The position numbers and the translations under genes were made by a program. A stretch of 63,986 nucleotides of DNA, filler included, from Sanchytrium tribonematis (Eukaryota): assembly GCA_018985235.1 (NCBI GenBank). It is 10 parts of 10 records of this genome, joined end to end, with 100 filler letters (N's around TTAATTAATTAA, not from the genome) between each part and the next. Parts side by side here need not be neighbours in the genome. Positions count along the whole stretch, not along the records: positions 19,498 to 25,868 come from JADGIG010000531.1; 9 more parts are not named here. One strand, 5' to 3'. Positions 26 to 63,986 of the stretch are shown piece after piece; the first letter of the stretch is position 1, and every line of letters begins with the position of its first letter. The notes under the pieces were generated by a model. The model worked only from the letters and a program-made list of their open reading frames with translations, was not told where the DNA came from and did no database searches.

Positions 26-3000
26 ATGAAAGTCAGAAAGCCTAAACAATTAGTCGCAGCCAAGTATTTAAAATCTAGTATTTTGGAGATTGATCAACTT
101 GATTTAAATGATGATGATGCTGATGATGCTGATGATGCTTCAATGGTGACTGTTTCGAAGAAACGAAAAGTTGCCAATGACAAAAGCCCAAAAAGTAATA
201 AGAAAAAGAAATTTCAGTCCAACAATACAGACTCGATCGAACTGTCTGGTGATGTTTCCATGGAAACAATAACCCAGACCAACTCTTTTGCAGCAGATAC
301 AGATATTTCCGATATGCCACCGCCTAGTGTTCAAATGTTTGAGTCTTTAATCGAAGTCAGATCTATTCATACTCCGAATTTAGCGGAACACCTCATAAAC
401 CAATACGATGAAAAGACCGAAATTACTTCGCTTGATATGTACGATAGAAAACTTTCTGCTGATTCCTATAAGAGAAAGATGTACATGTATTTGCTTGTTC
501 AGCACTGTGGCATTTTGGAACTTAACAAAGAAGTTTTTCATTTCTTGTATAACGATATGTTGAAATCAAACAAGAAAAGATTTGATCCCAAGACTATCCA
601 ATCCGACTGTGAGTGGTTGCAAAAGAAGGGGAAAGTAAACTTGGACACCTTGATGCTTCCTAAATTGACGGGTGGACTCTTACGAAGGAAGGTGATTTAC
701 CGAAACGATATATCGAAAGACGACGATTGCTTTAAAACTTTTGTTAATAATTGTGAGAGAAATTATTATAATACAACTAAAAAAGTTGTCCCTTTTGAAA
801 AAGAAGAAGTTGAAGTTGACAAAGTGTTTGAGCTGGATAGCGACAGTGTAAAAACCACAACCAATCCAATTAAAGTTGCTTGTGAATACGGTTATATCAC
901 CTCCAAATTTAGACGTGCAAAGCTTCTTCACACATTAATTTTTAAATACGCAAGTTTCTCTAATCCTTCAGATGATTTCATGGGTCATATTGATATAATT
1001 CAGGTTATTAAAAGTATGACAATACATGATTATATACAATTAGTACCGTTTACGGACAACTCTGAAAAGTCTAAACTATATATCAATGAAAATTTAGAAA
1101 CAAAAGTAATAGATGTTCCAGCTGATATCAAATTGTTTGAGGGTGCTTCCTCTGAACAATTCAGATTGAAATATCACTTAAGACTGGCTCTTAATATTCT
1201 AGTAGCGCTGGAATTACTAGTTGCAACTGAGATTAAGCCCTGGGAGCTACTTCTTGAATCAGATCATGCTGACGTTTTGTAATTCAATCTAATTTAGCTA
1301 TCAAGTTACTAATAAGTTGCCACTTTATAATTATGATATGACAGTTCCTTCTAAAACTCTTGGGGAATATTACACTTGCTACACCGTTGAGCAAGTATTG
1401 GAATTTTGGAATTTGTTAGAGACTCAATGTAAATCAAATATAATGAAAACAAAAAAAACTAAATCTAGAGGCTCTTCAAATCATCCTTTGTTGTATATAA
1501 ACACATTGAGGAGTTGGGCAATGAGAGTCTCTCTGTCTGATCAACAAAAGGAGCAGCTAAAGTCTTATTGCACACAGCAAACAACCCCCTTTCAAGATTA
1601 TAACAAGTGTATGGAAATTAGTCGTGATATGAGTATCTCAATTGATCAGGTCCGACATTATTTCAGATTACTAGAAAGCGAGTACTTGCAATCAAAAATT
1701 GCCAGCAGACTTATTGTGAAGAAAAGACAGGCCAAGAAAACTACAAATTTTACAAAGTTAATTAAGAAGAAAACACGGACAAGGCGTAAAATTCATTTTA
1801 ATACTTTAGATTATATTCTTTTAATCAAAATGGTAGTTTTACTCAAACATTGCTTTAGACAAATATCGTGGTATTGCATTGCTCAATTTTTTGAAATCGA
1901 AGAAGATTTGATAAAATCTGCAGATGTGCTACGGCGTCAATACAATTTGATCTCAAACAAAACCAAAGGAAAATTAGTTATCCATAAAATTGAAAATGTT
2001 ATTCACGCTTTGTCGTTTCCAGACTATGAAGATATGCGAGAATTCCCTCTACAAGAACTCGCGGAGTCTATTGATCTCGATGAATCAATTAGTAATGAGC
2101 TTGAAATTGCAATGGCCCCTCCACAAAAACAAAATATTCAAAATGCAATACAGCAAGACATATACTTGAGCAACTTTTATCCCAACTCAATCAGTCTTGC
2201 ATTGAATTCAACTTCAAAAATAGAAAAGTTATTAGGTATAGATCAAGTGAAAGGACATAACGTGTTCAAAGCCAGATATCTGTTAAGAGCTTTTTTGCTT
2301 AACAGGCAGTCAGAGATATATCAATATTGCATTCAACATAACATTAAGGCAGATGTATTGGATATTGCCATTAATTTGGAGTTGCAAAATAAGAGTATCA
2401 TATCCAATAACAGCGATGCGATTAAATATAGACCTAGTACAGAATATCTGCAAATATTTGAAAATAATATTAATCTAAAAATGATGCAATTTTACTCAAA
2501 CTTTGAATTTGATTTGAATAGAATTGATGGAGACTCTAGCTTTTACTTGATCCACCAAATGATCAATGGCTATTGCTCAATTTCAAGTTGCTTGGATTCT
2601 AATATTCGACTGGTACCAAATATGGTCAGAAATACCACAGAGGTAAAGCCAATTTTGACAATGTCGATGAGGAGCCATGATAAAGTGGCAATTGAAAGAA
2701 CTTCGGTTGAAACTATTTTATATCAACATTTAAATAATTTACACCAGAGAAAGTTATTTTTTAGCGCTGCAACAAACGTATTTTTTAAAATTAAAGACAA
2801 TCCCTTAATCTCAGCATCTACACTTGAAGATTTTTACAGCATCGGGCTTTCCAAATCTGAATTACAAAGAATTTTGATGTATTTGAAAGAAATCGAATTT
2901 GTGTTCAGTGAAACAATTGAAGTAGAATTAGAAACATTATTTGGCATTGAAAATAATATAGAAGATTATTTATGTATCTATCCTGATGCGTATTTAAAGG

Positions 3001-3483: not shown

Positions 3484-4975
3484 ATGAATAAATCCCCTCA
3501 GCCCTCAATTCAAAGAAGTAATACATGTTCAAAAGACCAGTATATTCATCAAGATAAGCACTACGCTGGATATATAAAAATCAAAAGGGGTAACCTTTTT
3601 TATTACTATATCCCAAATCAAAATAACAACTTAGTTATTTGGCTTAACGGTGGTCCTGGATGTTCCAGTGATATTGGTTTACTACTAGAGAATGGTCCAA
3701 ATATTATACAAGTTGATGGTAGTATGAAGAAGAACGAATTTGGATGGCATAGGCTTGCAAATATGTTATATATTGATCAGCCCGTTAATGCGGGATTCAG
3801 CCAAGGAGAGCCAGTTAAATCAGAAATGGATGTTTCTAGCGATTTTGTGGAACTAATGTCACAATTACTAGACGTTTATCCACAGATGCAAGATATGAAA
3901 ATTTATATTTCCGGCGAAAGTTATGCAGGTACTTATATTCCGTACATAGCACAAGGTTTACTTAAGAAAAATTATAATTTGCGAGGTTTGCTTATTGGTA
4001 ATGGGTGGATTGATCCGATGCCTCAATATAGATCTTACATAGAATACGCGAAGAAAAACGCTTTGTTGCTCCCAAAATATGAAGCAGAAATTGAAAAGAA
4101 ATGGCAAGCTTGTGTGACTGCAAACAATAAGAAGGAATTGATATTTATTAGAGAATGCGAAAATATAGCGGATCTTATATTTCAAAGTTCAAAAGAAATT
4201 AATAAGGGAAAATGTACTAACATGTATGATATCAGACTTATCGAAGAGAAAGGCTGCGGAGAAAATTGGCCATATCAACTCCCAGAGGTCTATAAATATC
4301 TTCAAAATCCAGTCACTGTTGCCAAAGTTCACGCTAATAAGACCTGGGTAGAGTGCGATGGCTCTGTTTACAATGCACTCAGCAAAGACACTAGTCCACC
4401 TACGGTTCATCTACTACCGGATTTGCTCCAAAAAATACCAATCTTACTCTTTAATGGTGATAAAGATTTCATTTGTAACCATATTGGACAAGAAAACATG
4501 ATCAAAAACCTTCAATGGAACAATCAAAAAGGATTTAAGAACAGTCCAGTTCCTGTTTATTTAAACGAACACCTCAAAGGCGAGATTCAAGCTGAAAACA
4601 ATTTAGGATTTTTTAAAATTTACGATGCATCCCACATGGTACCAATAGATCAGCCAGAAATATCCTATCACATGCTCAAACATTTTATGGAGGGAACTAT
4701 TGTAATTTACATTCATTTAGATGAACGGAACTAGTCATTTAACTTCAAAAGTTCTTCCAGTTGATAGCAATCTAAGACCTCCAAGTCCCTTAAATGGGAT
4801 TGTATCTCTTGCATTGGTTGCCACACTCCTATTGCTCATAATTATAGTTTATATTAGGTCTAGAATATCAAAAATTCATAAAAAGTCGAAAAAGCCTTTT
4901 GCTCCGCATCCAATTTTGGGTGGTTTTAAGAAAGTCCATTTTGAAGAAGACCATTCTGATGAAGAGCATGTGTAA
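3484..4975 (+). CDS. KEX1: Serine carboxypeptidase S10, Kex1-like with C-terminal TM helix; exons 3484-4701 and 4721-4975
   Basis: WLNGGPGCSS, YIDQP, GESYAG, NGDKDFICN and ASHMVP motifs. A TM segment and acidic tail follow the intron. True N-terminus uncertain. Confidence 0.8.
4702..4720 (+). other. 19-nt spliceosomal intron GTAATTTACATTCATTTAG
   Basis: Phase-0 removal joins the catalytic domain to the TM-anchor exon. Confidence 0.88.
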
Positions 4976-5738: not shown

Positions 5739-6411
5739 CTAAAGTTTATTCAAATCGTCTAGAAGATTTAAGGCTTTTTCACTATTCATCATCTCCAAGC
5801 ACCCATATCCTATTTGTTTTCCTCTTTTTTTAGCCAATTCTTGAAGTTGGTTATATTCTATATGATTACCAGCACCAACTACATACACAAATACCTAAGT
5901 CAATATAACATACCTGTGGAATACCACTTGGAAAAACGTACCCACCAAAAGGGACATGATTTTCGCCTTGAAGTGGATCTAAAACATTTAAGCTGTCCGG
6001 TTTCTCACTGCCTTGCAAGGTATTGAGTAATTGTTCTGTCAGTTTTACCACCTGCGAGGTTGTATCAAAAGGCATTAAATTTTTAACTCTATCAATAATA
6101 TTATTTAGAGTGGAAGTGTTTAAATTCTCACTAATTTTGGAACCAAAACTCGAAAATCTTCCCAAAAGATCCGCGCTAACACTAGGGCTATGTGATAGAT
6201 TACTGGATTGCTGTGTAGCAAATTGCTGCTTCTTGGAGTTTTGAAGAAAATCTAAACAACCTGATCCAAGTCCTAATTTTTCAAATTCTGCCATTAGTTC
6301 TTTCTCGTTTGTATGTTTTATCAAATACCATAGCAAAGCAATTCTCACTCTGTCCGTGTTTCTCATTTTTTCATTATTTTTCTTGCCTTGCAATATATCT
6401 AAAATGTCATT
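5739..6411 (-). CDS. SLY1: Sec1/Munc18 family protein Sly1, C-terminal part (5' cut by contig end); exons 6411-5914 and 5894-5739
   Basis: After splicing it reads PQ|VFVYVVGAGNHIEYNQLQE...IGYGC, the typical SM-protein C-terminus. A VKNLMP segment is also present. Confidence 0.75.
5895..5913 (-). other. 19-nt spliceosomal intron GTATGTTATATTGACTTAG
   Basis: GTATGT donor and TTGAC branch. Removal restores the conserved Sly1 C-terminal motif. Confidence 0.92.
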
Positions 6412-10645: not shown

Positions 10646-10657
10646 GGCGATTGCTTG

Positions 10658-12283
10658 TTATTCATCTTTACTGGATGTATTTGTGACAGCCTCCAAATAA
10701 ATACCATTTTCTTTATCTTTGAAAGTAGATGGTCCAATTGCTTCTTTTAGATATAGATTGATCTCATTATTTTGGCAACTGGTATATCCGTATTCAGTTG
10801 CTAAATTTATAATTGTAGTTGAAATTAATGAAGTGGATGCCACCAGCACGAAATTAGAATTTTTAAAATTACTTGTGAAAGCATATCCAAATGAGGATTT
10901 GGAAAGTATCTTATTTCTTAGTTTCTTGCCAATATCGGAATTCCCATTTCCACATCTAAATAATTCTAAGTAAATATTCGTTTCTTCCTTAAATCTTCGA
11001 AGAAGCATATTGGTTAGATCTGGTGAGTCGTAATCTCGTAAATCCTTGCAAGGACTGTTTGTTATTGAGGTTTTAAATGACCGCAAATTTGAAAAATCTA
11101 ATTCAAAATCAATTACATCATGATTGAATGTTAAAAGTACTGGTGTAGTATTTGGATAATCAGATTCAGTGCTATGAAATTCTAAGATGTGATTTTTAAT
11201 TTCATAAAAACTTTCATTTAAATGATTTTTGAGCACGTTGTCTAAATGTGCTGCTAAATGTGCACTTGTGATTCTAGATGGTCCAGTGCAAGGACTAAAA
11301 AATGGGATCTTGTTGTTTGACTTGTTGTGTGATATTGTTGGTCCATGACTACATGACACAAGCACAAATTGTTTTTTCATTATTGATGAAATGGGCTCTT
11401 GATTGCCACATTTGACAATAAATTCTTCTGCAAACTGAGACTGCTGCTGCAAATACTTGAGTAGAACCAGGTATTTTCCGGTACTGTATGGATTTAGCAT
11501 TGTTTGTAACTCGACAATTCCTTTTTGAAATTCCAAAATATTTCTAAAATTGCTCATGTTATTGAAGGATGAAGATGTCGAATAAATAGTATTTATTGTT
11601 ATACAAGCAAGACATTTGTGTTTCAAAATAGGTGATTGTAGTTCATTTCTGTAGTACTGCAGACTCTTGTGTTTTGTGTAACACGTACTCATATTTTCCG
11701 AAGATTTTAATTGCATGTAGATTTTGAAACTAATATTGATGCTCAATTTAATAAGAGAAACTGCGCGGCTCAAGAATGCCAACAAATTAGCATCTTTTTT
11801 ATTGTCTTGGGAAGTAATTGGAATTATTGCGTGCGGATCAGTGTTTCTAGAATGATAGATAATAATTTTATATAATACTGTCAGAACCTCAATCTTTGCT
11901 TTCAATTGATTTATTTCAGAAATTCGAGATGATTTATTTTTTCGAAAAAATAAAATTTGTTTCTTCAAAAGAAAGAAAGAAAAAGAGAGGGAGAAGAGAA
12001 AGATAACTTTGTTTGAGATACACGGATTCAATTGTGTGATCATGTGAGTGGTACAATAGACCACCGTGATCGAAGTTGTTTTTACAATGTAATTTGTATT
12101 AACATTTTGAAATTGATTAAAAATAATCGTCAAGTGGTTCCAAAGGATACCGGCAGTAGTTGCAAGAATCAATAAATTAAATCTATTCACTGAGAGTATG
12201 AAATCTGTAAAAATGTGAGTACCACAGAGAGTTTTTTCCCTGCTTTGTGAATTTGTATTCCAAATCTGTACTCCAGGTTTCAT
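10658..12283 (-). CDS. Hypothetical ORF, probable ORF1 of the retrotransposon (start uncertain)
   Basis: 541-aa ORF on the same strand, stopping 12 nt before the ORF2 ATG. No recognisable motif. Confidence 0.5.
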   Translation of the reverse strand: MKPGVQIWNTNSQSREKTLCGTHIFTDFILSVNRFNLLILATTAGILWNHLTIIFNQFQNVNTNYIVKTTSITVVYCTTHMITQLNPCISNKVIFLFSLSFSFFLLKKQILFFRKNKSSRISEINQLKAKIEVLTVLYKIIIYHSRNTDPHAIIPITSQDNKKDANLLAFLSRAVSLIKLSINISFKIYMQLKSSENMSTCYTKHKSLQYYRNELQSPILKHKCLACITINTIYSTSSSFNNMSNFRNILEFQKGIVELQTMLNPYSTGKYLVLLKYLQQQSQFAEEFIVKCGNQEPISSIMKKQFVLVSCSHGPTISHNKSNNKIPFFSPCTGPSRITSAHLAAHLDNVLKNHLNESFYEIKNHILEFHSTESDYPNTTPVLLTFNHDVIDFELDFSNLRSFKTSITNSPCKDLRDYDSPDLTNMLLRRFKEETNIYLELFRCGNGNSDIGKKLRNKILSKSSFGYAFTSNFKNSNFVLVASTSLISTTIINLATEYGYTSCQNNEINLYLKEAIGPSTFKDKENGIYLEAVTNTSSKDE

Positions 12284-17897: not shown

Positions 17898-19285
17898 TTA
17901 TTCACTCCATCCGAATCCACATTTCTCTAATCTATCCATTGCTTCAGCCAATACATCCATAGATGGTCCTAAAAACATTCTCAACATGGCAGGATAATAT
18001 TCTTCAGTATTTTCAGGATTAATCATGCTGCAATATCCGAATACCAACCCACATTTCTCTGCAATATGTTCTCTATATGCAATTTCCAAGTAGTTATATC
18101 CATCATCTTCATGATACACATCTAAATTATTAGATTTCTTGTGTTTTAACATCTCCACTTGAGATTGCAACAATTTATGAAATTTAGGAGGGATTTCAAA
18201 TAACATGTAAGATGTACATTCACCTACAATCAGAGCATCAGATGGATAATTCAATTCTAAAAACCTCTTTTTAATGAATTGCTTCTTTAAAATCATGGTT
18301 TCATTCACTTTTGACAAATATTGCGAACTTGCTGGGTCATTTAGAAAATTAGACATGGCTAGTTGTAATGGGACACCAGAACCATAAGAATGTGCATAAA
18401 AGTATTTCCACATCAATGGTTTTAACACAGCTGGATGTGCCACACAGAAACCTAAATAAATTAAATTTACCAATTCCCCATCCATTTGAGGAGAATTGCT
18501 TACCGAGTGATCTTACTTGACACCATAGTAAGCTACCACTATATGCATCTGATTGAATGTAGTTAGCTAGTAATTTTAATGCAATTGTGGGTTTTGCAGC
18601 ACTACAAATACCGAAATTCGCGTCATCAATTAAAAATGCAGATTTGTGTTCATCAGCAAATTGAATCAATTGATTGACTTGTGACTCACTCATATTGATC
18701 CCAGTTGGATTGTGTTGTGGATTAATAGTGATACATGCTAAATATTCGTCATTTTCCAAATCATCATAAATTTCCATTAATTCATTTAAATCGTACTGAA
18801 ATTGCTTAGATTTCTTCATGTAGATATTTCACAGTATATCCAGCATATTTAAAGACACCCTCATAGTCCCATGACGGACAAATCACGACAGCAACAGGTT
18901 TTTTAGTAGGATTTTGATGTTTGACATACATGGCGAAATCAAACATTGCATTTCTAGATCCTTGGTTAATGACTGATACTTGATAATCTCTTCCTAATTT
19001 GAATGTATCTGGTAATTCATGGGTCTTTTTAGCATAGATTTCGACTGTTTTACGCAATTCTTGCAATCCATACGCATCTACGATGTAGCCATGTGAATAA
19101 TGGGGCACATTATTTAAATGCTTGACCAAATCAACGGGTGTATCCTTCCACGTCTCTCCATGTGATAAATAGATCGGATGGCCATAAATCGGATCTTCTA
19201 AATACGGTTTAATGTATTCTAATTCCGTGTTATCGCCTAATACTTAATCAATACTTAATTCTTGATGTTCAAAGAGCGTCGGCAT
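17898..19285 (-). CDS. PLP-dependent aminotransferase class I/II; introns 19237-19254, 18814-18832 (tentative) and 18452-18470
   Basis: YGLQELR, INPQHNPTG, IDDAN and SLGKQ...GWGIG (PLP lysine) motifs, plus a C-terminal LRM. Three ORF pieces join through tiny introns. Confidence 0.85.
18452..18470 (-). other. 19-nt spliceosomal intron GTAAATTTAATTTATTTAG
   Basis: Removal gives GWGIG-FCVAHP, restoring the PLP-site motif and the frame. Confidence 0.9.
18814..18832 (-). other. Tentative 19-nt intron GTGAAATATCTACATGAAG (alternative: a 1-nt frameshift)
   Basis: Removal restores the frame and there is an A at -6, but the donor is GTG and the removed sequence translates plausibly (VKYL). Confidence 0.45.
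19237..19254 (-). other. 18-nt intron GTATTGATTAAGTATTAG
   Basis: In frame and contains a TAA stop. Removal links ATG 19285 to the rest of the gene. Confidence 0.7.
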
Positions 19286-19793: not shown

Positions 19794-19808
19794 TATACTC
19801 CGTGTTAT

Positions 19809-20336: not shown

Positions 20337-20377
20337 ACTTTAATTGTGTACATTACAATTAATTGCAAAACAAGGAC

Positions 20378-21448
20378 ATGACAATTGTTTTAGGCATTGA
20401 GAGCAGTGCCAACAAAGTAGCAGTGGGTATCACAAAAAAAGAAGGCGATAGATTTGCTACACTATCCAACTTAAGAAGAACTTACACGACATTACCTGGG
20501 GAAGGTTTTCAACCTAAAGAAGCTGCAACATTCCATAGGCAAAATTGTGTTGAATTGGTAACAGAGGCTCTTAAAGAGGCTGAAGTGAGCCATCAAGATA
20601 TTGATTTTATAGCATATACTAAAGGGCCCGGAATCGCTCCATGCCTCATAGTGGGTGCAATTGTTGCTAGAACATTGTCCCTGATCTGGAGTAAGCCACT
20701 GGTTCCTGTCAATCACTGCGTTGCACACATTGAAATGGGCCGGATAGTATGTAATTCAGAAAACCCTGTCATTCTGTATGCAAGCGGAGGAAATTCACAG
20801 ATTATTGGTTTTGCTAATCAAAGGTATCGAATTTACGGAGAAACAATCGACATAGCTGTGGGAAATGCTTTGGACAAGTTTGCTAGAAAATTAAAATTAC
20901 CAAACAATCCTAGTGGTGGATTTTGGGTCGAAAAATTGGCTTCTTATGGCTGTAAATATGTCCCACTTCCATATGTAATTAAAGGAATGGATGTTTCGTT
21001 TAGTGGAATGCTGAGTTATGTTGAAAACTTTATAGGCAAATGTAACATAACATACCGAGGCCCTACAAATGTGAATGATTTAGTTGGAGAGTGGTTTAAG
21101 AATGACATGCAAGATGTCGCTGATCTATGTTATTCTTTGCAAGAAACAGCGTTTGCGATGATGGTGGAGACTACTGAAAGGGTGATGGCTCTAACCAATG
21201 CCTCTGAAATTCTTTGCGTGGGAGGCGTTGGATGCAATTTAAGACTTCAGGAAATGCTTCATTTAATGGCCAGGGATAGAGGTTCGAAGCTTAATTCTAT
21301 GGATGAACGATATTGCATTGACAATGGTCTAATGATAGCATGCACTGGTGTTTTATTTTCCGAATGCAACGCTTTTCCATCGCTTGAAGAATGCTCGGTA
21401 ACTCAGCGTTATAGAACTGACCAAGTCGAAATAAGTTGGAGAAATTGA
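20378..21448 (+). CDS. KAE1: tRNA N6-threonylcarbamoyladenosine biosynthesis protein Kae1/OSGEP
   Basis: LGIESSANK, VNHCVAHIEMG, GETIDIAVGN, GGVGCN, IDNG and QRYRTD motifs. Confidence 0.97.
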   Translation: MTIVLGIESSANKVAVGITKKEGDRFATLSNLRRTYTTLPGEGFQPKEAATFHRQNCVELVTEALKEAEVSHQDIDFIAYTKGPGIAPCLIVGAIVARTLSLIWSKPLVPVNHCVAHIEMGRIVCNSENPVILYASGGNSQIIGFANQRYRIYGETIDIAVGNALDKFARKLKLPNNPSGGFWVEKLASYGCKYVPLPYVIKGMDVSFSGMLSYVENFIGKCNITYRGPTNVNDLVGEWFKNDMQDVADLCYSLQETAFAMMVETTERVMALTNASEILCVGGVGCNLRLQEMLHLMARDRGSKLNSMDERYCIDNGLMIACTGVLFSECNAFPSLEECSVTQRYRTDQVEISWRN

Positions 21449-21454
21449 CTTTGT

Positions 21455-23194
21455 TTATTTTAGAAAAAAATCTGGTCCGCAAATGCTTGTGCTGCAAATA
21501 AAGAGTTTTATGGAAGTATTTTTAAACAGGAATCTTAGCGCTGAACACTCTGCTTCTGTCACCCCTCCCACGAAAACAAAAATGAAAGTCTTATTTGGGC
21601 ACAAATTTACCGATTCACTTTGAAGCAAGTCGTCAAATACCACAGAAGCTAAATTTGAATCGGTTGAGCACTTGGACAAATTTAAGTTTTTGATGCAATT
21701 TTTGTTCTCGTCAATATTGGCTTGTATTAATCGTGGTATTAGTGGCGCAATTCCGCTAAGAACATATGAAATATCGACAGGATCTCTTTCTGGAGTATTT
21801 TCAACAAAAAGATTTAAGTCCTTGCGAATTGTTTTGTAAAATGATCTGATATTATCTTCTTTCCTTGAAATTAAGTGACATTTCATTAAGTTATCCCAAA
21901 CTTCAAAATATTCAATGCCATATGTTTGTACAAATTCTTTTTTTAGCAATTCTAATTTCTTGCTTTTAAGCCCATCAGTAGATAAAGATATAATTGAAAG
22001 TAGTCTAATGGTATCGTCGACATTCTCACCTCTCGCAATTAATTCTTCAACGTGATCTAAAAACAAGTTATTCTCTATTCCACTAACACAATTTTGCTGA
22101 ATTTCAACAAACTTGTGAAAATCATCGTCCATTGCTTTTTGCAGCTGCTCTGCTAAATTTGTGTGTAGCCTAAGATATTTGTGCTCTGATTGAAGGGATC
22201 CAAGTTTGCTGACAAATGCTTTAATTTGGGGGACTGTTTGGGCTTGATTTCTGGAATCAAATCCTTGTTTTAAATTTTTTGCGAACTTATTAAGATAGGA
22301 GCCTACACCAGCGAAATTCATGTCCCTCAACTCTAAATAAAGAGGATCGTCCTTTAATTTAATTTTTTTGTGGTTAATTGGGCGCGGCTTCATTTTATCT
22401 ATAATAGGTATATCCCCATCTATGTGCCCATCATTGAAGTCACAGAATTCCGAAAGCAGTCCCGCATATGTAAGCTGCTTTAGTAATGGTGTAACCAAAT
22501 CCAAATTTCTATCGAAAATAAACATTTCCAAATTGCCTTGTTCTGCCTCACCCGAAGAATTATTAGTTTTTGCATTTGGAAATTGCTGAGGCACTGGAAT
22601 TTGATAAGAGGTATTTTTTAAAGAACAACGACTCTCTAAAACGTTTTCCATGTGAATCATATTACTAAATATATTTTTTAACAAGCAAGCATTTTTTCCG
22701 ATACCGGCTAATCTTTGAGGAATCCCAAAGATCTGACGTAATTGCATGCACCCTAAGGATAGCTCATGCAACACATGAGGGTCGGATCTGACAAACAAAT
22801 CATTAAAGCAATCAATTTCCAATATCATAACATCATTTTCTGGCAAGCTCCAGAAAAGAGGCATTTCCATAGCAGTGATATCGACGTTTTTTTCTAAAAG
22901 AATGGCAGTTTGTAGCTCGATTCTTGGTACAATAAGTAGTACGTTTTCTACTGATGTGTCTATATTAGATAGTACTGTTTGAGCAGATCTATTTTTAATC
23001 AAATAAAATGTCAAAATCTGTTGGCTATTGTTTTGCCTTAAATTTCCAATCGAAACTACTTTATGTTCTTTTAATGTTTGATAATCGAGGATTAGGTTAA
23101 TAGAATTAACAAGCTCATTATCGATGATAAGGTTTTTGGGCCCAGGTTTAGAATCTAAAGCATCCAGAATATACTGCAAATACAAAGAGTTCAT
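21455..23194 (-). CDS. VPS33: Sec1-family vacuolar sorting protein Vps33
   Basis: DRNLDLVTPLLKQLTYAGL, ELRDMNF, LHTNLAE, DISYVLSGIAPL and FVGGVTEAECSALRF motifs. Confidence 0.93.
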   Translation of the reverse strand: MNSLYLQYILDALDSKPGPKNLIIDNELVNSINLILDYQTLKEHKVVSIGNLRQNNSQQILTFYLIKNRSAQTVLSNIDTSVENVLLIVPRIELQTAILLEKNVDITAMEMPLFWSLPENDVMILEIDCFNDLFVRSDPHVLHELSLGCMQLRQIFGIPQRLAGIGKNACLLKNIFSNMIHMENVLESRCSLKNTSYQIPVPQQFPNAKTNNSSGEAEQGNLEMFIFDRNLDLVTPLLKQLTYAGLLSEFCDFNDGHIDGDIPIIDKMKPRPINHKKIKLKDDPLYLELRDMNFAGVGSYLNKFAKNLKQGFDSRNQAQTVPQIKAFVSKLGSLQSEHKYLRLHTNLAEQLQKAMDDDFHKFVEIQQNCVSGIENNLFLDHVEELIARGENVDDTIRLLSIISLSTDGLKSKKLELLKKEFVQTYGIEYFEVWDNLMKCHLISRKEDNIRSFYKTIRKDLNLFVENTPERDPVDISYVLSGIAPLIPRLIQANIDENKNCIKNLNLSKCSTDSNLASVVFDDLLQSESVNLCPNKTFIFVFVGGVTEAECSALRFLFKNTSIKLFICSTSICGPDFFLK

Positions 23195-23352
23195 AACGAA
23201 TTTTAAGTGAAACAATGGAGGATCATAAAGAAATAAATATTTTAAAAGATATTGGCTGGTGCTTGATACAATTAGGATATTAAATCAAAATATGAGTCTT
23301 ATATTGCTTGATTGAGGTTTGCCTAATTCGCTCCGATTTCTCCTTGCTGCAA

Positions 23353-24499
23353 ATGTTAAACAGAAACTTGTTGGCATTAAAACGTGTTGTACCAATTACT
23401 ATTGGCGATGTTGACAAAAGTTTTACATTCGTAATCGAGCCCTATCAATTGCATAAAATTGATCCTAAAGATGGTCCAGATTTAGAAGTCACACTAACAA
23501 AAGGAGAGTTATTAGATATGTACTCGTCAATGATGTTGATGCGTCGTATGGAAACTGCAGCTGATGCATTATACAAACAAAAATTAATCAGGGGATTTTG
23601 TCACTTGAATTCCGGGCAAGAAGCTGTCAGCGTTGGAATCGAGAGCGCAATAGACAATGATGACTCAATCATTACAGCTTACCGATGTCATGGCTTTGCA
23701 ATGGTACGAGGTGGTACTGTAAAATCTATCCTAGCCGAATTGCTTGGTCGTGCGGGAGGGATTACTAAAGGAAAGGGAGGATCGATGCATATGTTTGCTC
23801 CTGAATTTTATGGTGGTAATGGCATTGTGGGAGCTCAAGTGCCAGTAGGTGCAGGAATTGCATTTAAACATTGGTATAACAAAACCAAGAAGGTTTCTGT
23901 ATCTTTGTATGGGGATGGTGCTGCTAATCAAGTAATTTTTATTTATGAAGGGGCAAATATTCGAGGCATATAATTTGGCTAAATTATGGAAACTACCTGC
24001 TATATTTGCATGCGAAAATAACAGGTATGGTATGGGAACCTCTGCTGCACGTGCCTCCGCTTCTTTTGAATACTTCACTCGAGGTGATTATATTCCAGGA
24101 ATTAAAGTCAATGGTATGGATGTCTTATCGGTTCATAAAGCACTTAAGTTTTCCAAAGAATTCTGCAATGTTCAAGGCCCAATAGTCCTGGAAATGGAAA
24201 CTTATAGGTATGGTGGTCATAGTATGAGCGACCCCGGTACGACTTACCGAACGAGAGAAGAAATAACAAATATGAGATCTAGAAGAGATCCTATCAACGG
24301 ATTAAAATCTAAAATTTTAGGAAAATCAATTGCAACGGAGGAAGAATTGAAAGCCATTGACAAACTATGCAAAGAGCATGTTGACAAGAGTGTGGAGGAG
24401 GCAAAAGCTCAACCAGAACCATCTTTAGACGAGCTTTGCTCTGACGTATATGTTGAAAAGACAGAAATGAGAAAAACTGTGCCTTCTGCGTATTTATAA
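23353..24499 (+). CDS. PDA1: Pyruvate dehydrogenase E1 alpha; exons 23353-23931 and 23951-24499
   Basis: IRGFCHL, GKGGSMH, GDGAANQ|GQIFEA and [13 protein letters not shown] motifs. Confidence 0.97.
23932..23950 (+). other. 19-nt spliceosomal intron GTAATTTTTATTTATGAAG
   Basis: Interrupts the highly conserved GDGAANQGQ TPP-binding motif. Removing exactly these 19 nt restores it. Confidence 0.96.
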
Positions 24500-24540
24500 T
24501 GAATAAAATTAAAATTTCTTAAATTTTCGAAACAACTCCG

Positions 24541-25868
24541 ATGAGTAATTTGGTAATTGACACAAATAAGCTTTTTCTTCCTAGCTTTGATCATACAATG
24601 GATGGAAATTTGTTTATGGATATTTATACTGATATTTATAACACTTGTACAAGAAACAGCCAACATGGAAAAGCCATGTATGAAGCACTAACAGATTTTT
24701 TAAAGAAAAAAATGAAAGAGATATTGAATACATGGGATGCAAATTCGAATGGATCCTTATTGCAACAATATTTAGATTTTTTCAAAAGATTTAAATTGAG
24801 TGCAAAATTTTATCATCATACGATGGATTATCTTAATCGTCATTGGATTAAAAGGGAACTTGATGAAGGCAAGCAAGTCTACGATATTAATACTACATGC
24901 TTACTCACTTTTAAGCAAGCACTATTTGAAATAGTTCAAGATAGGTTGCTTAATGAAGTTCATGATAAATTAAAAAAACATAGACAATTATTTATTCAGG
25001 AAACCTCAGATAAAATCAATAATATAAAGGGACAGATAATTGAAGCAACCGAGCAGGTTCAAATCGAAACCCAACTAAGTGAGTTGGTTGCTAGCATTAT
25101 GCTTATATGTCTCAGCGAGCAGCAGTATTATCATGATCATTTCATAGCGCCTTACAAAAGCTGGATGAATCAATATAAGACATTTTATGATTCCTTATTT
25201 GTTGAACAAATGGATTCTAACCGTTTGCTCTTCTATATGAGACATTCTCAAAGTGTTCTTCAATTTGAGTATCACATGCTTGATGAATGCTTCAATCAAG
25301 TATTTATAGATGAGCTTAAGGAAGCTCTACATGGTCTTTTAATTGAAAAATACAAGGATTATATCATTAATCATTTGCTGACTTTCTTGAAAGAATTGAA
25401 CAAAGAGGGTTTGAAAAAAAGTTGGGAGCATTTAGACGTTATCTCTTTCAAGCAACCACTGTATGACATTGTATATCAATTCATTGCAGATCACTTGAAA
25501 AATTCGCAAAATGACATTGTGGATGCAAAAGGGGACAGCAATGAACAATTGAATCAATCTGGATTAGTAAAACACTATATGACGATATACAACCACTATA
25601 TGAGTCTTATGGAATGCTTTTCGAATGATCCAGGTTGCATTGCGTCTCTAGATAAAGCATTTACAGATCACATTAATACAATTGCAAATGTCCCTGAGAT
25701 ACTTGCTAAACAAGCAGACACAGTCTTGAAGAAGATGCAAAGTGATAGAGACTATGTTGAAAGTAATTTAAAAGACATTCTTGTATTGTTCAAGTATATT
25801 TCTGATAAGGATATTTTTCACAAAGTTTATAGTAAAGGACTTGCGAAAAGATTGTTATTTGGATCCAG
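24541..25868 (+). CDS. Cullin (Cul1/Cdc53-like), 3' truncated
   Basis: YLNRHWIKRE, SLDKAF, PEILAK and FKYISDKDIFHKVYSKGLAKRL motifs. Confidence 0.9.
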
Positions 25869-26193
25869 NNNNNNNNNNNNNNNNNNNNNNNNNNNNNNNN
25901 NNNNNNNNNNNNTTAATTAATTAANNNNNNNNNNNNNNNNNNNNNNNNNNNNNNNNNNNNNNNNNNNNCATTACAACAACCATTTATCATTTCACTCTAT
26001 TTCCAGAACCAGAATGAAATTAGAAAATAAGATTTATTTATTTGACAAAATGGTAAATTTGGATAATTTCCAATCACAACATCTGCAAATTTTAAATAGC
26101 AGAATAGGACAATTTATGGATAAACACCAACTGCACTAGGAATCTGATGGTATTGTTTTCATGTCAATGACATGAAATAATCCCTTTAATAAA

Positions 26194-26225
26194 TTCTTCT
26201 TCTTCTTCTTCTTCTTCTTCTTCTT
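26194..26225 (+). repeat. (TTC)n microsatellite, about 10 copies
   Basis: Read directly from the sequence. Confidence 0.95.
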
Positions 26226-26239
26226 GCCATGTTCATTGA

Positions 26240-27183
26240 TTCCCTTGGAGAATTCCATACAGTATCATTGCCTACGCTGATGATGTGGTCTTCATTGCAA
26301 AGGGTATAGGTATAATGAGAAGATTATTGAGATATTTTAGTGATTTCTTGACTAGCAACCACATGAGTGTGTCAATTTCCAAATGTGGCTCTTTTAATTC
26401 ATCGACATTGAAAATCCAGAACTCAAATACTCCTTTAGTTGATGAATCCAGATTCACACCATTTTGGATAGACTCAATGAATAAGGCATTAAATTTACTT
26501 GGATGTGCACCATTCATTCAAAGATATCATCAATACAGATCAAGAATTGCCTCTAAAATTTCAGATTTCTTTGATTTGCCACTTGATCAAAATCATCACA
26601 GAAATGTATTAAATGGAATAATAAGAACTGCTAGTGATATGGAAAATATTGATGAATCCAGATTCACACCATTTGGATAGGCTCAATGAGTGATGTTTAT
26701 GAAAAATACGTTTGCAAGATAATTTTACACATTTACCCTCCTAATTGCTGCCAAATATGTAAAAGATTATATGGAATAGAAACGCATTTGTCATAGAATC
26801 ATGTATTTGAGTATCATTTGGGAATCGAAGAGAATCTTCCCCAATTACTCCATGGTTTTCAAACCCATCATTTTGCCAATTACAATTTATTTGATTTGGT
26901 CAATTAGTATTGTTTTTGCAGTTATGAATTTAATCATTCATTTTCAAAAGTGTCACACTATTTACTGCAATTTATTTATGACCAATTTCAAGAGAATATT
27001 GCAACTGAAGAATTTGCTCAAATTTTACTTCCACATTTGCCATCTATGTATCAAGAACAACACGTAATACATCCTGAAGGTGCTTATAGTTTTATGAGAT
27101 ACATTAATGGCTTATTAATTCAAAAGAATGTGTGTACTGATGAAGTATTTTTACAAAGATTATTGAGAAACAGATTTTTGTAA
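26240..27183 (+). pseudogene. Decayed non-LTR retrotransposon fragment (RT core and C-terminal remnant)
   Basis: IIAYADDVVFIA, SISKC and NLLG segments, then broken frames and an internal duplication of about 40 nt. Confidence 0.65.
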
Positions 27184-31464: not shown

Positions 31465-32024
31465 ATGGCACGTTCAAAAGAAACCTATAAAAGTAACAAT
31501 GCAACCAAAACTTATCTTCTAAAGCTCCTCGTAAACATTATTCCGGTAAATCTTTCAAAGAAGCACCATCAAACAAAAAATTTAAGATTGCATCCAATCG
31601 ATAAATTAACTCGAACTCAATTGCGAAGAATGCAAAATGCATTAAAGAAAAATCAAGAGCAATCTATTCAATTCATGGAAAAAGCATTTGAGAAAATGGA
31701 TGAAGACGTTAGTATTGACTTGTATTCGGACGAAAAACAAGTTCTTACAGATGCAATTGAAGTAAAAGAGAAACTAATTAGAACATGCAGTCACAACACG
31801 TCTCAAAAGTTGAGTTTACTTTGAAAAAATGTCATGGAATGAAATTGACATCAAATGGTGGACCATCAGATCTAGATTTTTATTGTTTGGTTTCATGGGA
31901 TGGAAAAGATGAGAATGATAATGATTATGAAGATTCATGGGAATTATACATCAATTTGTGTAATACAGTAACTGTTGGTGAATTTATGGAACGCAATGCA
32001 GACAAATTTGGAAATGCAAATTGA
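31465..32024 (+). CDS. Chromodomain-containing protein; exons 31465-31761 and 31782-32024
   Basis: YCLVSWDG...DSWELYINL chromo motif, joined in frame to the upstream ORF by a 20-nt intron. Confidence 0.6.
31762..31781 (+). other. 20-nt intron GTAAAAGAGAAACTAATTAG
   Basis: GTA donor and CTAAT branch. Phase-0 removal fuses two ORFs. Confidence 0.7.
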
Positions 32025-37317: not shown

Positions 37318-38767
37318 ATGTCTCAATTAAGTCAATTGAAAGCCAAGTACACGGAAGCCGGTCAAGAACACGTATTTGCATTTTACGAGAGCCTGGATGA
37401 AACCCAGAAATCAGAATTACTAGAGCAATTGTCAGAATTTGATCCAACTGACACAAACAAGATATTTAAAACTGCTATGGGCTACACGGAAAGTGGAAAT
37501 GTGATAGATCCATTGCCAAACGGTTGTGTTGCAACATCATCCGACTCAAAAAATCCAGAATGGGAAGAGTGTGGACTAAAATTAATTGCCGAGAATAAGG
37601 TTGCGGTTGTGCTGTTAGCTGGTGGTCAGGGCACAAGACTTGGAAGTTCCGACCCGAAAGGCTGCTACGACATCGGACTTCCTTCTCGAAAGTCTTTGTT
37701 TTTGCTACAGGCAGAGCGATTATGTAAATTGCAAAAAATTGCAGCAAAAAAGCATCCAGGGAGCAAACCTATAATTCCATGGTATGTGATGACTTCCAAA
37801 CCGACTAGAAAAGCTACCGAAAATTATATTTTAAAAGAATCCTCATTTGGCGGTTTGAATAAGGATCAAATATTTTTCTTCGATCAAGGTGTGTTGCCGG
37901 CTTTTACAAAAGAAGGTAAAATTATATTAGAAGATAAAGGAAAATTATCTGTTGCCCCTGACGGAAATGGAGGATGTACTTATGATTAATGTAGTATATA
38001 TGGCGATGGCAAATAAAGGAGTTTTAGCTGATATGAAAAAACGTGGAGTTGAGCATATCCATGCTTACTGCGTTGACAATTCATTGGCAAAAGTTGGAGA
38101 TCCGGCGTTTATTGGGTACTGCTCAACATCTAAGGCACCTGTTGGTGCAAAAGTAGTTCGTAAAACATTTCCTGAGGAGCCAGTCGGAGTCGTTTGCCTC
38201 AAAAACAAAAAATTTTCAGTTGTTGAATATTCTGAAATTCCAAAAGAACTAAGCGAGAGAAAAGCCCAAGATGGAAGACTTTCTTTTTTTGCAGGAAATA
38301 TTGCAAACCATTATTATTCTTTAAAATTTTTGGAACATGCGAAAGAAAACGACAGTTTCATGCCATTTCATATCGCTCATAAAAAGATCAAGCACGTGGA
38401 TTTAAAAACTGGAGAAACTGTAAAGCCTTCTGAACCAAATGGTGTAAAGATGGAACGATTTATCTTCGACGTGTTTCCACTTGCAGATAATTTGGCAATT
38501 TTTGAGGTTCCTAGAGCGGACGAATTTTCCCCACTTAAAAATGCACCAAAAGCAGGTGCTGACTGTCCAGAAACTTGCCGAAGAGATTTAATGCGACTTC
38601 ATATTAAATTTTTGAGAAAGGCTGGTGCTTCGTTAGATGCTCCTCAAGACAGTGCTGAAAATACAGAGTGGGACAAATTTTTTGAGAAATCTGACAATGC
38701 GGTCGAAATTTCAGCTTTGAAATCTTATTGCGGAGAGGATTTAGAAGAATTTAAAGGAAAGACGGTT
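37318..38767 (+). CDS. UAP1: UDP-N-acetylglucosamine pyrophosphorylase, 3' truncated; exons 37318-37975 and 37995-38767
   Basis: LLAGGQGTRLG, PDGNGG|LY, VDN, VVEYSE, KMERFIFDVF and EFSPLKNA motifs. Confidence 0.96.
37976..37994 (+). other. 19-nt spliceosomal intron GTACTTATGATTAATGTAG
   Basis: Removal restores the conserved PDGNGGLY motif. Confidence 0.95.
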
Positions 38768-40792: not shown

Positions 40793-40847
40793 AATTCAGG
40801 GGGTGGATGTTGTACTGTTAAAAGGAAATTGTGTTTCAGAATGTAAT

Positions 40848-61069: not shown

Positions 61070-63986
61070 TTATAGTAAGCCAAACAGTTTCAAAAAATCA
61101 TCCATAGTATAATGACGGACACATTGCAAAGGCCATGTAGGTCTTAGGAATTTCACGGAATCCCCATTTCGTACTCTTGACATTGCCACATATAGTTGTT
61201 GGGGTACCCAGAAGTTACGAATGTTTCCGACAATAATTTTATCCAAAGTCAAGCCTTAATAAATAGTAAGTACCTTGAGTTTTATGCACAGTAGTTGCGT
61301 ATGCGGGTACAATAGGAATTTGATATAAATGCCAGTCTTCTATTGTTTCCCTTTTTGGTGTTAAGGTTGTTAATAGTGGTCCATCCCTGGATACGAATTC
61401 GACTTTAACCCAGTGTTCAATATTTGTCATGCAAATTTCTCTGACTGTTCCAAATGATCCATTTACTAGCCCGTTTGTTACATCTATGTTATTTAGAAGC
61501 ATTACTTTACAACCAACACAAATTTTTAATTCTGGAATATATCTAAATTGGTTTTTAATACTATCAGCAGCTTGATTATAATTTGATAAAGGAAATTGGT
61601 TTCCTTGAATATCGAAATACTTAAAAGTAAATATAGGATTGTCAGAAGTTGTTATTGTATTCAAACGGTTTTCGTTAAAATTTTTACATTGCTCTCTTCT
61701 GGCAAATACATATGGATCCGGCAGTGTATAGTCTGATATCAATCTTTCGTTTACAAAAGTAAGTAGTTCTTGTAATACAATAGGAGTATTGTCATAAAAT
61801 GAGTGAAGCATTGTTAGTAAATGTGAATCTTGAGATCTTTCATTTATAGTTAATTCGTGTGATATAAAATGTGTAAACCATGCTGATGTTTCAATCGGCT
61901 CATCTAAGACAGCTGGTAATTGTTTTGAGTCACCGAAAAGAATAACTTTAATACTTTGGCAATTTTGTTGATTTAAGATACGCATAATGAAATCAAAAAG
62001 CGACTTTCCAATCATACTAAACTCATCAATAATTATATAATCAATGTCCTTTAATGACGTTGTATTTGAAAACAGAGTTGAAACCCAATCGTTTTGTAAT
62101 TTAGTAATTCTTAGAAGCGAATGAACGGTACTACCACCAATTAGATAGGCGGCAACCCCAGTAGATGCAGTAAGTTTGCAAACCTTGCCTTGAGTATGTA
62201 ATGCATATGACAGTGTACGTAACAAATAGGTTTTGCCAGTTCCAGGACCACCTGTCACCAAATGAAATCTATTATCACTGTTCATGATATTATTATACAC
62301 ATTATATTGTGAATTATTAAGATCCGTCATTGAGGGGTGAAATTGTTGTAATGTGAGATTATACATGTTTACCAGTCTTGTATAAAGATCATCTGGATAA
62401 TTATCTGTGTGTAAAAGCTCTGGCCCGTGATCTTGTTCGAATTGTTGATCGAGATTAACTAATTCACTATAAAAATTCAATACAAATTGTCGATACGGCT
62501 GTGTATTATTAAGTAATAAATATGGATCTCGAAACGGATTTGCTTTCAATATAATTTGGGCATAGTATTTATCACCTGCCCATTCAGTGTAGTAAGGAAA
62601 CAAGCGAACAACTAGTTCTGTATTACACTTTTGCCATTGCTGACCGTCATAATCCCAAAGTACGGTACCGCGATAGCTTCTAGGCGCTTTTTTGTATTGT
62701 TGAAAATATTCAATAATTGTTAAATTTTCTAATGAGTTATGCCTTTTACAATATAGATCAACTGCATTGTCATAATATATATCTTCATCTTCATCATTAA
62801 GTGCTGCTATTCTATTTACTGGTTGTAACGTTCGTTGCTCTAATAGTGTATAGCACAATTGAATAGGTACAACTTTTGTACTAAATTGTGCAATGTTGTT
62901 GCCCATAGTGTAATGACTTACCTCATGCGTAGAAATATTTCGGTACGTCAAATATCGTCTTGCATAATTAGTTTCATCGATTTCTACGGAAAAAGGCTCA
63001 TCTTTTGTCATATATTTGGAAATATAAAATGCCACGTTTTCTGAAGTAACCAATTTTACATCCATATTACCTCTCCAAGCTTTTAAAAATGCAGGGTGAT
63101 AGTTATTTATCATGACTTCGTTACGAGATCGAGCAATTACAAAAACATCGTTTTCGGCATCATATTGTGATATAGTACTAACTGGTTGAGGAAAATGAAA
63201 TCTACAAGTTCCATTACGTAAGCAATAGTTTGTAGAGCATGAATGAGTTTGATATTTTTTAACAAGCCAAAACAATTCCGGATCTTCATTTACATCTGGA
63301 ATAGATGCTTTTACACCTGGCAACAAAGAAATTAAATCAAAATTGTTAAGCCACAATAACAAATGAACATGAACAGTTCCTCTTTGCTGAAACTCAAATC
63401 TTCGAAAAAAGTGTGTAACATCATACCCTAAATACCCATTGTCTTTAATGTATTTGCACATTGCTTGTAATCTTTCATAACAAAAGTGATTTGTTAACCA
63501 AGGATTTTGAATGTGTGCAGGTAATGTATTATTGTCTTCTAGAGTACCAAACTGTTTTAGATATAAACTCAAAGAAAGCCAATTGGATTCATCGCAACTA
63601 AATGTTAAATACAAGCTTGGCACTCCAATTGTTTTAATAAAAGCAAAAATGTTGCCTTTTATTTTCCTCATATATTGTGATCCACCTCTAATAGTTACCG
63701 GAATAGTTGATGTTACTTCGTCATCATAAATAGTTTCATCGTTATAATTAGACTGTTGTAGAACTGCTCTTGCATTAATTGCCCCTCTGTGTTCACTAGC
63801 AGCATTATTTCTAGTTATTCGCCTATGATTATATGCAATTTTGGTATACTCTTGAATATCAAAATGATAAAAAATCCAACTCCATTCATTTCGAAACCGC
63901 GGATCTTCATGAAAGCATAAATTTTTTATTTTAGTAGAGTGTTTTCCGTCAATTGGAAAATTAAATTCACAGCCTTCTGGAAACAA
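61070..63986 (-). mobile_element. Helitron-type RepHel gene (HUH Rep + PIF1 helicase), 5' truncated; exons 63986-61274 and 61254-61070
   Basis: Rep motifs YLTFSC, EFQQRGTVHVHLLLW and YISKY. Helicase motifs GGPGTGKT, IDEFSM, GDSKQLPAV, HKTQG|LTLD and YVAMSRV. Confidence 0.92.
61255..61273 (-). other. 19-nt spliceosomal intron GTACTTACTATTTATTAAG
   Basis: Removal restores the PIF1 motif HKTQGLTLD and attaches the YVAMSR exon. Confidence 0.93.

What the first reader, a model, noticed from the sequence alone, without database searches (positions are those of the whole stretch)
23932..23950. Branch-point geometry is fixed: YTNAY with the A exactly 6 nt from the 3' end
The 3' ends of the seven confident 19-mers are CTAATTTAG, TTCATTTAG, TTGACTTAG, TTTATTTAG, TTTATGAAG, TTAATGTAG and TTTATTAAG. 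All have T at -8 and A at -6, with no polypyrimidine tract and TAG or AAG acceptors. The implied lariat loop is only 14 nt. Stentor's tiny introns are reported to carry a conserved A 6 nt from the 3' end, which suggests convergence on a steric minimum. The 18-nt and 20-nt introns deviate.
Basis: partly seen in the sequence, partly recalled or inferred. Interest (0 to 1): 0.75.

Follow-up and report, generated by a model that had tools for sequence, protein, structure and literature searches.

The report
Nineteen-base introns in a sanchytrid fungus
In a fungus related to the alga-parasitising sanchytrids, seven genes are interrupted by 19-base inserts that are likely spliceosomal introns, shorter than any fungal intron my literature searches turned up, and their predicted branch point sits six bases from the end, a spacing already known from the yeast Yarrowia and the ciliate Stentor.

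Summary
All seven 19-nt GT-AG segments exist. Six are anchored by protein homology without using the motif; the seventh joins two TFIIIC-like halves. All 7 have Y-9, T-8, A-6 and Y-5 (shuffle P about 3e-5 to 8e-5 for such a column pair). 6 of 7 also have A-10, which completes a TACTAAC-type register. The window's PDH E1-alpha groups with Amoeboradix gromovi (Sanchytriomycota). Read-through peptides of four relatives' orthologs imply introns of 19, 19, 21(?) and 28 nt with the same 3' register, so the likely branch is tied to the AG rather than to a fixed 14-nt loop. The interpretation needs correcting: A at -6 is the known fused branch-point/AG layout of Yarrowia (41-3478 nt introns), and Stentor's loop is 10-11 nt, so 14 nt is no universal minimum. 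What appears new is the lineage: I found no paper on sanchytrid introns, and 19 nt is below E. cuniculi's 22 nt. Splicing and branching are not shown by RNA. The scan has notes on tiny introns in Rozella (25-32 nt) and Neolecta (~37 nt), none on sanchytrids.

The parts
23932..23950 (+). 19-nt phase-0 GT-AG intron in pyruvate dehydrogenase E1 alpha, between GAANQ and GQIFEA
   Evidence: Pfam E1_dh continues at profile position 137 in the second frame. GQ follows the motif in 104 of 114 proteins that carry it. Four relatives read through into GT-type sequence at the same site.
23940..23946 (+). Predicted branch motif TATTTAT; predicted branch A at 23945 (position 14, -6)
   Evidence: 5 of 6 possible pairs with canonical U2 GUAGUA, best register in this intron; inferred, not mapped
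23353..24499 (+). PDH E1 alpha gene (two exons), sanchytrid clade
   Evidence: 83% identical to Amoeboradix gromovi P0005; clade support 0.999
37976..37994 (+). 19-nt phase-1 intron in UDP-GlcNAc pyrophosphorylase (UAP1), splitting PDGNGG|LY
   Evidence: Pfam UDPGP ends at 169 and resumes at 170. 8 of 9 homologs that reach this motif read GG[IL]Y; the ninth, P0122, reads through a 19-nt intron.
4702..4720 (+). 19-nt phase-0 intron in a Kex1-like serine carboxypeptidase, before the transmembrane tail
   Evidence: The Sanchytrium tribonematis ortholog P0241 is continuous here and aligns without a gap across the junction
5895..5913 (-). 19-nt phase-0 intron in a Sly1/Sec1-family gene
   Evidence: The Sec1 profile match starts at residue 1 of the downstream exon and yeast Sly1 aligns from residue 2 (E 0.067), which argues against the 16- and 31-nt alternatives. 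The upstream exon had no PDB hit.
18452..18470 (-). 19-nt phase-1 intron in a CcbF-like class I/II aminotransferase, splitting KQFSSNGWGI|GF
   Evidence: Upstream exon aligns to PDB 8kdl/8kdk up to the junction. The downstream exon had no meaningful hit, so the acceptor is less firmly fixed.
61255..61273 (-). 19-nt phase-1 intron in a Helitron-like Pif1 helicase, splitting HKTQ|G
   Evidence: Upstream exon ends on the HKSQ motif of 8bns; downstream exon aligns to Pif1 chains from residue 1; only GT-AG join of 40 nt or less
1279..1297 (+). 19-nt phase-2 intron joining two halves of a likely TFIIIC subunit 1 (Tfc3/GTF3C1) gene
   Evidence: Weak Pfam eWH_GTF3C1 hit upstream (E 0.04) and DUF7645 downstream (E 0.008); Atlas neighbours of the downstream half are TFIIIC clusters at 0.82-0.86, a lead only; only GT-AG join of 40 nt or less. 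No homolog was aligned across the junction.
19237..19254 (-). Candidate 18-nt intron (in-frame stop) after the first 10 codons of the aminotransferase; A at +14 = -5
   Evidence: Needed to supply a start Met; 12- and 36-nt joins are also in frame; uncertain
18814..18832 (-). Candidate 19-nt GTG-type intron in the aminotransferase; A at -6 but no T at -8
   Evidence: Bridges a frame change. Spacing in CcbF (37 residues) is closer to a plain frameshift (35) than to splicing (29), counted; uncertain.
31762..31781 (+). Candidate 20-nt GT-AG with ACTAAT (A at -5) in a frameshifted, degenerate region
   Evidence: Listed; region shown; no homology support; probably not an intron

Best explanation
These 19-base GT-AG inserts are likely U2-type spliceosomal introns of a sanchytrid-lineage fungus, in which the predicted branch A is fused to the acceptor at -6. 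Inferred mechanism: positions 1-6 (GTAHDT) would pair with U1/U6. Positions 9-15 (tAYTnAY, an AT-rich TACTAAC) would pair with U2 GUAGUA and bulge the A at position 14. The first AG after the branch, 2 nt beyond the motif, would be taken without a polypyrimidine tract. Only about four bases (7-8, 16-17) lie outside a recognition element, so 19 nt is likely the eroded lower end for this lineage; longer orthologous introns appear to add bases upstream of the branch. Shown: sequences, column conservation, restored reading frames, shared position in relatives. Inferred: splicing, the branch nucleotide, snRNA pairing, the floor.
For: Removing each insert restores a conserved protein. The S. tribonematis Kex1 ortholog is continuous across the junction. 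The PDH site reads through to GT-type sequence in all four close relatives, in a vertebrate-grouping NCBI model P0063 and in 3 of 75 metagenome loci, which share one identical sequence, so it is likely an old intron position that shrank. Pairing with canonical U2 at the -6 register is 33 of 42 possible, P = 0.00085 given the A; the +10 register gives 19 of 36. In ortholog read-throughs A-6 is forced by the codons in 3 of 4 and allowed in the fourth; A-10 is forced in 3 of 4; Y-9 and Y-5 hold in 4 of 4. Lengths are 19, 28, 19 and 21 (the last only if the stop is TAG). Retaining any of the seven gives a stop within 1-40 codons. The Yarrowia register is identical.
Against: There are only seven introns, from one 64-kb window of ten joined contigs. 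The strict motif was built on those seven, so its peak at 19 nt (9 hits against 0-3 at other lengths) is partly circular, and 2 of the 9 hits lie antisense to long ORFs. The -6 A is the uniquely best U2 register in only 3 of 7 introns and tied-best in 4. Ortholog introns come from back-translated peptides, not DNA. The 18-nt candidate has its A at -5 and the GTG candidate lacks T-8. The organism's own U2, U1 and U6 are not in the window (Rfam 0 hits). The motif-blind scans list many non-intron joins, so acceptance rested on homology.
Confidence: 0.75

Rival explanations
1. The introns are real but the branch is the A at position 10 (-10), giving a Stentor-sized 10-nt loop measured from the 5' end.
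For: A at +10 in 6 of 7 (P about 0.004) and in the 18-nt candidate; Stentor branches at position 10.
Against: U2 pairing at +10 is weaker (19 of 36 against 33 of 42). The TFIIIC intron has T there. In the 28- and 21-nt orthologs position 10 is C and G, while the 28-nt one has A at both -10 and -6. A-10 is what TACTAAC predicts.
Confidence: 0.06
2. A 5'-anchored ruler: the branch is set 14 nt from the GT and the next AG is used, as suggested for myxobolids and Dicyema; -6 is a by-product of uniform length.
For: A sits at +14 in all seven and in both aminotransferase candidates, including the 18-nt one where it is -5. In myxozoans the conserved As move away from the AG as introns lengthen (PMC13644364).
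Against: The inferred 28-nt and 21-nt orthologs have T at +14 and A at -6. The two views are compatible if 14 nt is only a lower limit.
Confidence: 0.1
3. The inserts are real introns defined by length and AU-richness alone (nucleomorph-type caliper), and the motif is a small-sample accident.
For: B. natans nucleomorph introns of 18-21 nt have no discernible branch A (PMC6009652). n is small, and the three best-anchored introns alone give P = 0.05.
Against: P is 2e-4 or less for 6-7 introns after allowing any column; the same register appears in four orthologs.
Confidence: 0.06
4. The breaks are assembly errors, pseudogene lesions or frameshifts that happen to be bridgeable by GT-AG.
For: Possible for the GTG candidate (CcbF spacing fits a frameshift better) and for the 20-nt candidate in a degenerate region.
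Against: Homologs need exactly 19 nt removed, not 1. Independent relatives carry inserts with different sequence at the same PDH and UAP1 sites. The chance of a GT-N15-AG at a given position is 0.25%.
Confidence: 0.03

Closest known systems
Yarrowia lipolytica fused branch-point/3' splice site introns (Irimia and Roy 2008, PMC2483917; Mekouar et al. 2010, PMC2911113; passages read)
   Same: No polypyrimidine tract; branch motif 2 nt before the AG (CTAAC-N-YAG), which puts the branch A at -6 and the motif's A at -10: the same register as here.
   Different: Yarrowia introns are 41-3478 nt with a strong ACTAAC and GTGAGT donor. Here they are 19 nt with an AT-rich, wobble-dependent tAYTnAY, a GTAHDT donor and TAG/AAG acceptors.
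Heterotrich ciliate tiny introns, Stentor coeruleus (PMC9505925; passages read)
   Same: GTA start, U-rich body, putative branch A at -6, narrow length.
   Different: 15-16 nt, loop 10-11 nt, no strong branch consensus; here 19 nt, loop 14 nt and a recognisable 7-nt branch register. Independent origin.
Mikrocytos mackini 16-17 nt introns (PMC10245619, section 7 read)
   Same: Reduced parasite genome, few introns, very narrow length, conserved sequence; the authors propose erosion to a functional floor set by the length of the recognition sequences.
   Different: Rhizarian; 16-17 nt; I did not see the logo, so the branch position was not compared.
Microsporidian introns, Encephalitozoon cuniculi (PMC2483917, PMC3629993, PMC3486916; passages read)
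   Same: Fungal relative, intron-poor, CTAAYTT/TAATT motif close to the AG.
   Different: 22-76 nt with strict GTAAGT, enriched in ribosomal protein genes and spliced inefficiently. Here 19 nt, in the middle or 3' part of varied genes.
Bigelowiella natans nucleomorph introns (PMC6009652; passages read) and myxobolid/Dicyema introns (PMC13644364; parts 1-2 of 3 read)
   Same: Similar lengths (18-21 nt; median 22-27 nt), AU-rich.
   Different: Intron-dense with weak signals. The nucleomorph shows no branch A, and the myxozoan As shift away from the AG with length, the opposite of the 3' anchoring inferred here.

Membership tests
U2-type spliceosomal intron | GT...AG ends | tested here: met
   7 of 7
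U2-type spliceosomal intron | Precise removal restores a conserved reading frame | tested here: met
   Homology at or next to the junction for 6 of 7; indirect for TFIIIC
U2-type spliceosomal intron | Branch motif able to pair with U2 GUAGUA with a bulged A | tested here: met
   33 of 42 pairs with the canonical motif (cited from PMC13685798), P = 0.00085
U2-type spliceosomal intron | Complementarity to this organism's own U1/U2/U6 | not testable with these tools
   No snRNA in the window; no genome held
U2-type spliceosomal intron | Excision from RNA through a lariat at the predicted A | not testable with these tools
   No lariat or spliced-read data were available to lay on the window
U12-type intron | Extended RTATCCTT donor (consensus recalled, from no call) | tested here: not met
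   Donors are GTAATT, GTATGT, GTAAAT and GTACTT
Constrained BP-AG introns (Yarrowia, Trichomonas, Giardia type) | Branch motif at a fixed short distance from the AG, no polypyrimidine tract | tested here: met
   2-nt spacer in 7 of 7; YTNAY with A at -6 in 9 of 42 GTA..T 19-mers against 0-3 at other offsets
Constrained BP-AG introns (Yarrowia, Trichomonas, Giardia type) | Distance stays fixed when intron length varies | tested here: inconclusive
   Holds in two longer orthologs inferred from peptides (28 nt; 21 nt if the stop is TAG); two uncertain window candidates have A at -5
Heterotrich-type tiny introns | Length 15-16 nt, branch at position 10-11 | tested here: not met
   19 nt, A at position 14; works like them at the 3' end only
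Sanchytriomycota (host lineage) | Groups with Amoeboradix/Sanchytrium | tested here: met
   PDH 83% identical to A. gromovi, clade support 0.999 in a single-gene tree of 30 sequences; best Kex1 hit is S. tribonematis at 48%. No Blastocladiomycota sequence was knowingly included.

The most novel reading that the evidence does not exclude
Sanchytrids have the shortest spliceosomal introns in Fungi (mode 19 nt, floor perhaps 18). Donor, branch helix and acceptor are packed nearly edge to edge: the branch is anchored to the AG and a 14-nt lariat loop is this lineage's lower limit. This would be an independent opisthokont origin of near-minimal introns, with a spliceosome predicted to have lost or altered the Prp18/Slu7 ruler that enforces about 10 nt from branch to 3' site in budding yeast (PMC10711555 passages).
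Probability: 0.5. Interest if true: 0.68.

Novelty: new member of a known kind. Interest (0 to 1): 0.5.

Why it matters
The -6 geometry is known. The new point is a true fungus with introns of about 19 nt that still show donor and branch signals, which gives another independent data point on the minimal intron and a lineage close to long-intron chytrids for comparing spliceosomes. There is also a practical consequence. The published sanchytrid proteomes were predicted with TransDecoder on genomic contigs (PMC8371127), with no splicing step described, and the A. gromovi PDH E1-alpha entry stops two residues past the intron site (P0005). Intron-bearing genes are therefore likely split or truncated in datasets used for fungal phylogenomics and gene-loss claims.

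Tried and rejected
No whole genome is held. No RNA holder was listed for window 17001-26900; this is no evidence either way. Rfam gave 0 matches at E up to 1. Looking for sanchytrid DNA: the metagenome scan returned 75 loci, best 71% identical, none near the 81-83% of the close relatives; viral scans with the Helitron and UAP1 proteins and a prokaryote-genome scan with the Vps33-like protein found no relative. A search for longer aminotransferase homologs found none. PDB searches of the third aminotransferase exon, the upstream Sly1 exon and both TFIIIC halves gave nothing relevant. The 18-nt join at -10671..10654 was rejected as a likely ORF1/ORF2 boundary of a LINE-like element. The 19-mers at +10815 and +40735 were rejected as antisense to long ORFs. 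A 12-nt reading of the first aminotransferase intron fits YTNAY perfectly but implies a 7-nt loop; set aside as implausible, not excluded. Lee et al. 2010 on E. cuniculi is not held, so the exact E. cuniculi branch-to-AG distance was not confirmed. In the Galindo supplements (9 files searched, one unreadable, file 4 cut when stored) U2AF had one hit and Prp18, Slu7 and SMU1 none; inconclusive. Literature searches for sanchytrid introns or spliceosomes and for the shortest fungal introns found no such description; subscription papers and unseen supplements may hold one.

Full report
What is there. The window is ten contigs of about 6.3 kb, joined by N-spacers with a stop-codon core. GC is 31-38% and genes are dense, with long unbroken ORFs. 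The segment at 23932-23950 (GTAATTTTTATTTATGAAG) interrupts pyruvate dehydrogenase E1 alpha between GAANQ and GQIFEA. The Pfam profile resumes at position 137 in the next frame, and GQ follows this motif in 104 of the 114 listed proteins that carry it.

Organism. The closest PDH proteins are four sequences at 82-83% identity; the fifth hit is at 65%. One of the four is named Amoeboradix gromovi. The five form a clade with support 0.999 in a single-gene FastTree of 30 of the 120 proteins, with the window's protein outside the other four. The best hit of the carboxypeptidase among 1.84 billion representatives is named Sanchytrium tribonematis, at 48%. So this is a sanchytrid-lineage fungus that matches neither named species. 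I assume but did not prove that all ten contigs come from one organism.

Are the seven real introns? A scan using only GT-AG, open frames and a coding model, with no branch information and lengths of 12-60 nt, listed five of the seven under strict thresholds and six under relaxed ones, among many spurious joins. The choice therefore rests on homology. UAP1: the profile ends at 169 and resumes at 170, and 8 of 9 homologs reaching the motif read GG[IL]Y. Kex1: the continuous S. tribonematis ortholog aligns without a gap across the junction. Pif1: the exons meet at HKTQ|G. Sly1: the Sec1 match begins at the first residue of the downstream exon. Aminotransferase: the upstream exon aligns to CcbF-like proteins up to the junction, while the downstream exon had no hit. 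TFIIIC: both halves look weakly like subunit 1, and this is the only GT-AG join of 40 nt or less. All seven are 3n+1, and retention gives a stop within 1-40 codons.

Is the motif more than chance? Columns are GTA 7/7, T+6 7/7, A-10 6/7, Y-9 7/7, T-8 7/7, A-6 7/7 and Y-5 7/7. Among the 324 GT-N15-AG 19-mers of the window, 34% have A-6 and 14% have both T-8 and A-6. Within-intron shuffles of positions 7-17 give P about 3e-4 for A-6 in all seven, and 3e-5 to 8.5e-5 for any invariant T-n-A column pair. That second P is 2e-4 for the six anchored introns and 0.05 for the three best anchored. A strict motif scan gives 9 hits at 19 nt and 0-3 at each other length from 15 to 40, but it was built on the seven, and two hits are antisense false positives. 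With it the motif reads tAYTnAY, the register of yeast TACTAAC. Against the canonical U2 GUAGUA (PMC13685798), 33 of 42 possible pairs form around the -6 A (P = 0.00085 given the A). This register is uniquely best in 3 of 7 introns and tied in 4.

Relatives. Because the relatives' proteins were called without splicing, their tails read into the intron. Back-translation gives: P0002, 19 nt (3 of 3 downstream codons fit exon 2); P0004, 28 nt (5 of 6); P0122 at the UAP1 site, 19 nt (14 of 17); P0003, 21 nt if its stop is TAG. A-6 is forced in P0002, P0003 and P0004 and allowed in P0122. A-10 is forced in three and allowed in one. Position 14 is T in both longer introns. A. gromovi's own entry ends VQ-stop, so its length is unknown. 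The branch motif thus appears to follow the AG while the 5' part varies. The PDH position also shows a GT start in a vertebrate-grouping model (P0063) and in 3 of 75 loci carrying one identical sequence; 61 matches read GQ. It is therefore likely an old intron that shrank. The Kex1 intron is absent in S. tribonematis, so gain or loss continues.

Deviating cases. The aminotransferase needs two more repairs. One is an in-frame stop after ten codons, bridged by 18 nt (A at +14, i.e. -5), or by 12 or 36 nt. The other is a frame change bridged by a GTG-started 19-mer with A-6 but no T-8. CcbF spacing (37 residues) is nearer a plain frameshift (35) than the splice (29), counted. If the 18-nt intron is real, the loop stayed at 14 nt and the spacer shrank, which would hint at a lineage floor; that rests on one uncertain case. 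The 20-nt candidate lies in a frameshifted region with no homology support.

Mechanism. Shown: the sequence anatomy and its conservation. Inferred: positions 1-6 pair with U1/U6, positions 9-15 pair with U2 and bulge A14, and the first AG five bases after the branch is used with no pyrimidine tract. About four bases are left free, which fits erosion to a floor set by the recognition sequences, as proposed for Mikrocytos (PMC10245619 section 7). In budding yeast Prp18 is reported to impose a minimum of about 10 nt from branch to 3' site and to be dispensable, with Slu7, for short distances (PMC10711555 passages). A reduced role for these factors is therefore predicted here but untested.

Comparison. 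Stentor's putative branch A is at position 10 of 15 or 11 of 16: the same -6, but a 10-11 nt loop. Yarrowia has a 2-nt branch-to-AG spacer, again -6, in 41-3478 nt introns; Trichomonas and Giardia have 4 nt. E. cuniculi introns are 22-76 nt with CTAAYTT. Nucleomorph introns of 18-21 nt lack a visible branch A. In myxobolids and Dicyema the As move away from the AG with length. So the geometry is a known kind, is not tied to tiny size, and the loop is not a universal minimum. The -6 spacing may be near a floor for the branch-to-acceptor distance, but that is not shown.

Novelty. The sanchytrid genome paper mentions introns only in a reference title and used TransDecoder on contigs (passages and supplement search). 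Searches found no description of sanchytrid introns, and searches found no fungal intron set this short; the library lacks most subscription papers. Seven to nine introns in about 53 kb of long ORFs suggests an intron-poor genome, though short exons and stop-free 3n introns would be missed. Verdict: a real feature with a known geometry in a new lineage; interest 0.5.

Noticed in passing
whole window: Ten contigs of 5.9-6.4 kb in decreasing length, joined by N-spacers with a TTAATTAATTAA core; several genes are cut at contig ends.
   Followed up: yes
window 17901-19290 (-): Class I/II aminotransferase whose best PDB matches are CcbF and 8kdl. CcbF is recalled as an actinobacterial lincosamide-pathway enzyme, so this may be a horizontally acquired gene that gained up to three tiny introns; no tree was made.
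   Followed up: partly
window 61073-63986 (-): Helitron-like Rep/Pif1 helicase carrying a host-type 19-nt intron in the HKTQG motif.
   Followed up: partly
window 31440-32021 (+): Frameshifted region whose first ORF pieces resemble a histone H3 tail (MARSKET...KAPRKH) followed by a chromodomain-like stretch; resemblance judged by eye, Pfam gave no such hit.
   Followed up: no
window 3484-4975 (+): The Kex1-like protein and its S. tribonematis ortholog both start without an obvious signal peptide; a short upstream exon may be missed in both.
   Followed up: no
window 14544-16931 (-): Protein with a weak MLKL N-terminal domain match (E 4e-6, just below cut-off), a kinase domain and Sel1 repeats.
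   Followed up: no
window 6512-12911 (-): LINE-like element with endonuclease and reverse transcriptase in a 1382-aa ORF, preceded by a 550-aa ORF.
   Followed up: no
window 40799-41489 (-): Cysteine-rich repetitive ORF (metallothionein-like by eye) overlapped by open frames on both strands; no Pfam hit.
   Followed up: no
window 42212-44680 (+): Telomerase reverse transcriptase in one unbroken 823-aa ORF.
   Followed up: no
P0005 (A. gromovi, EukProt): The public PDH E1-alpha entry is truncated at the intron site (195 aa, flagged complete).
   Followed up: yes
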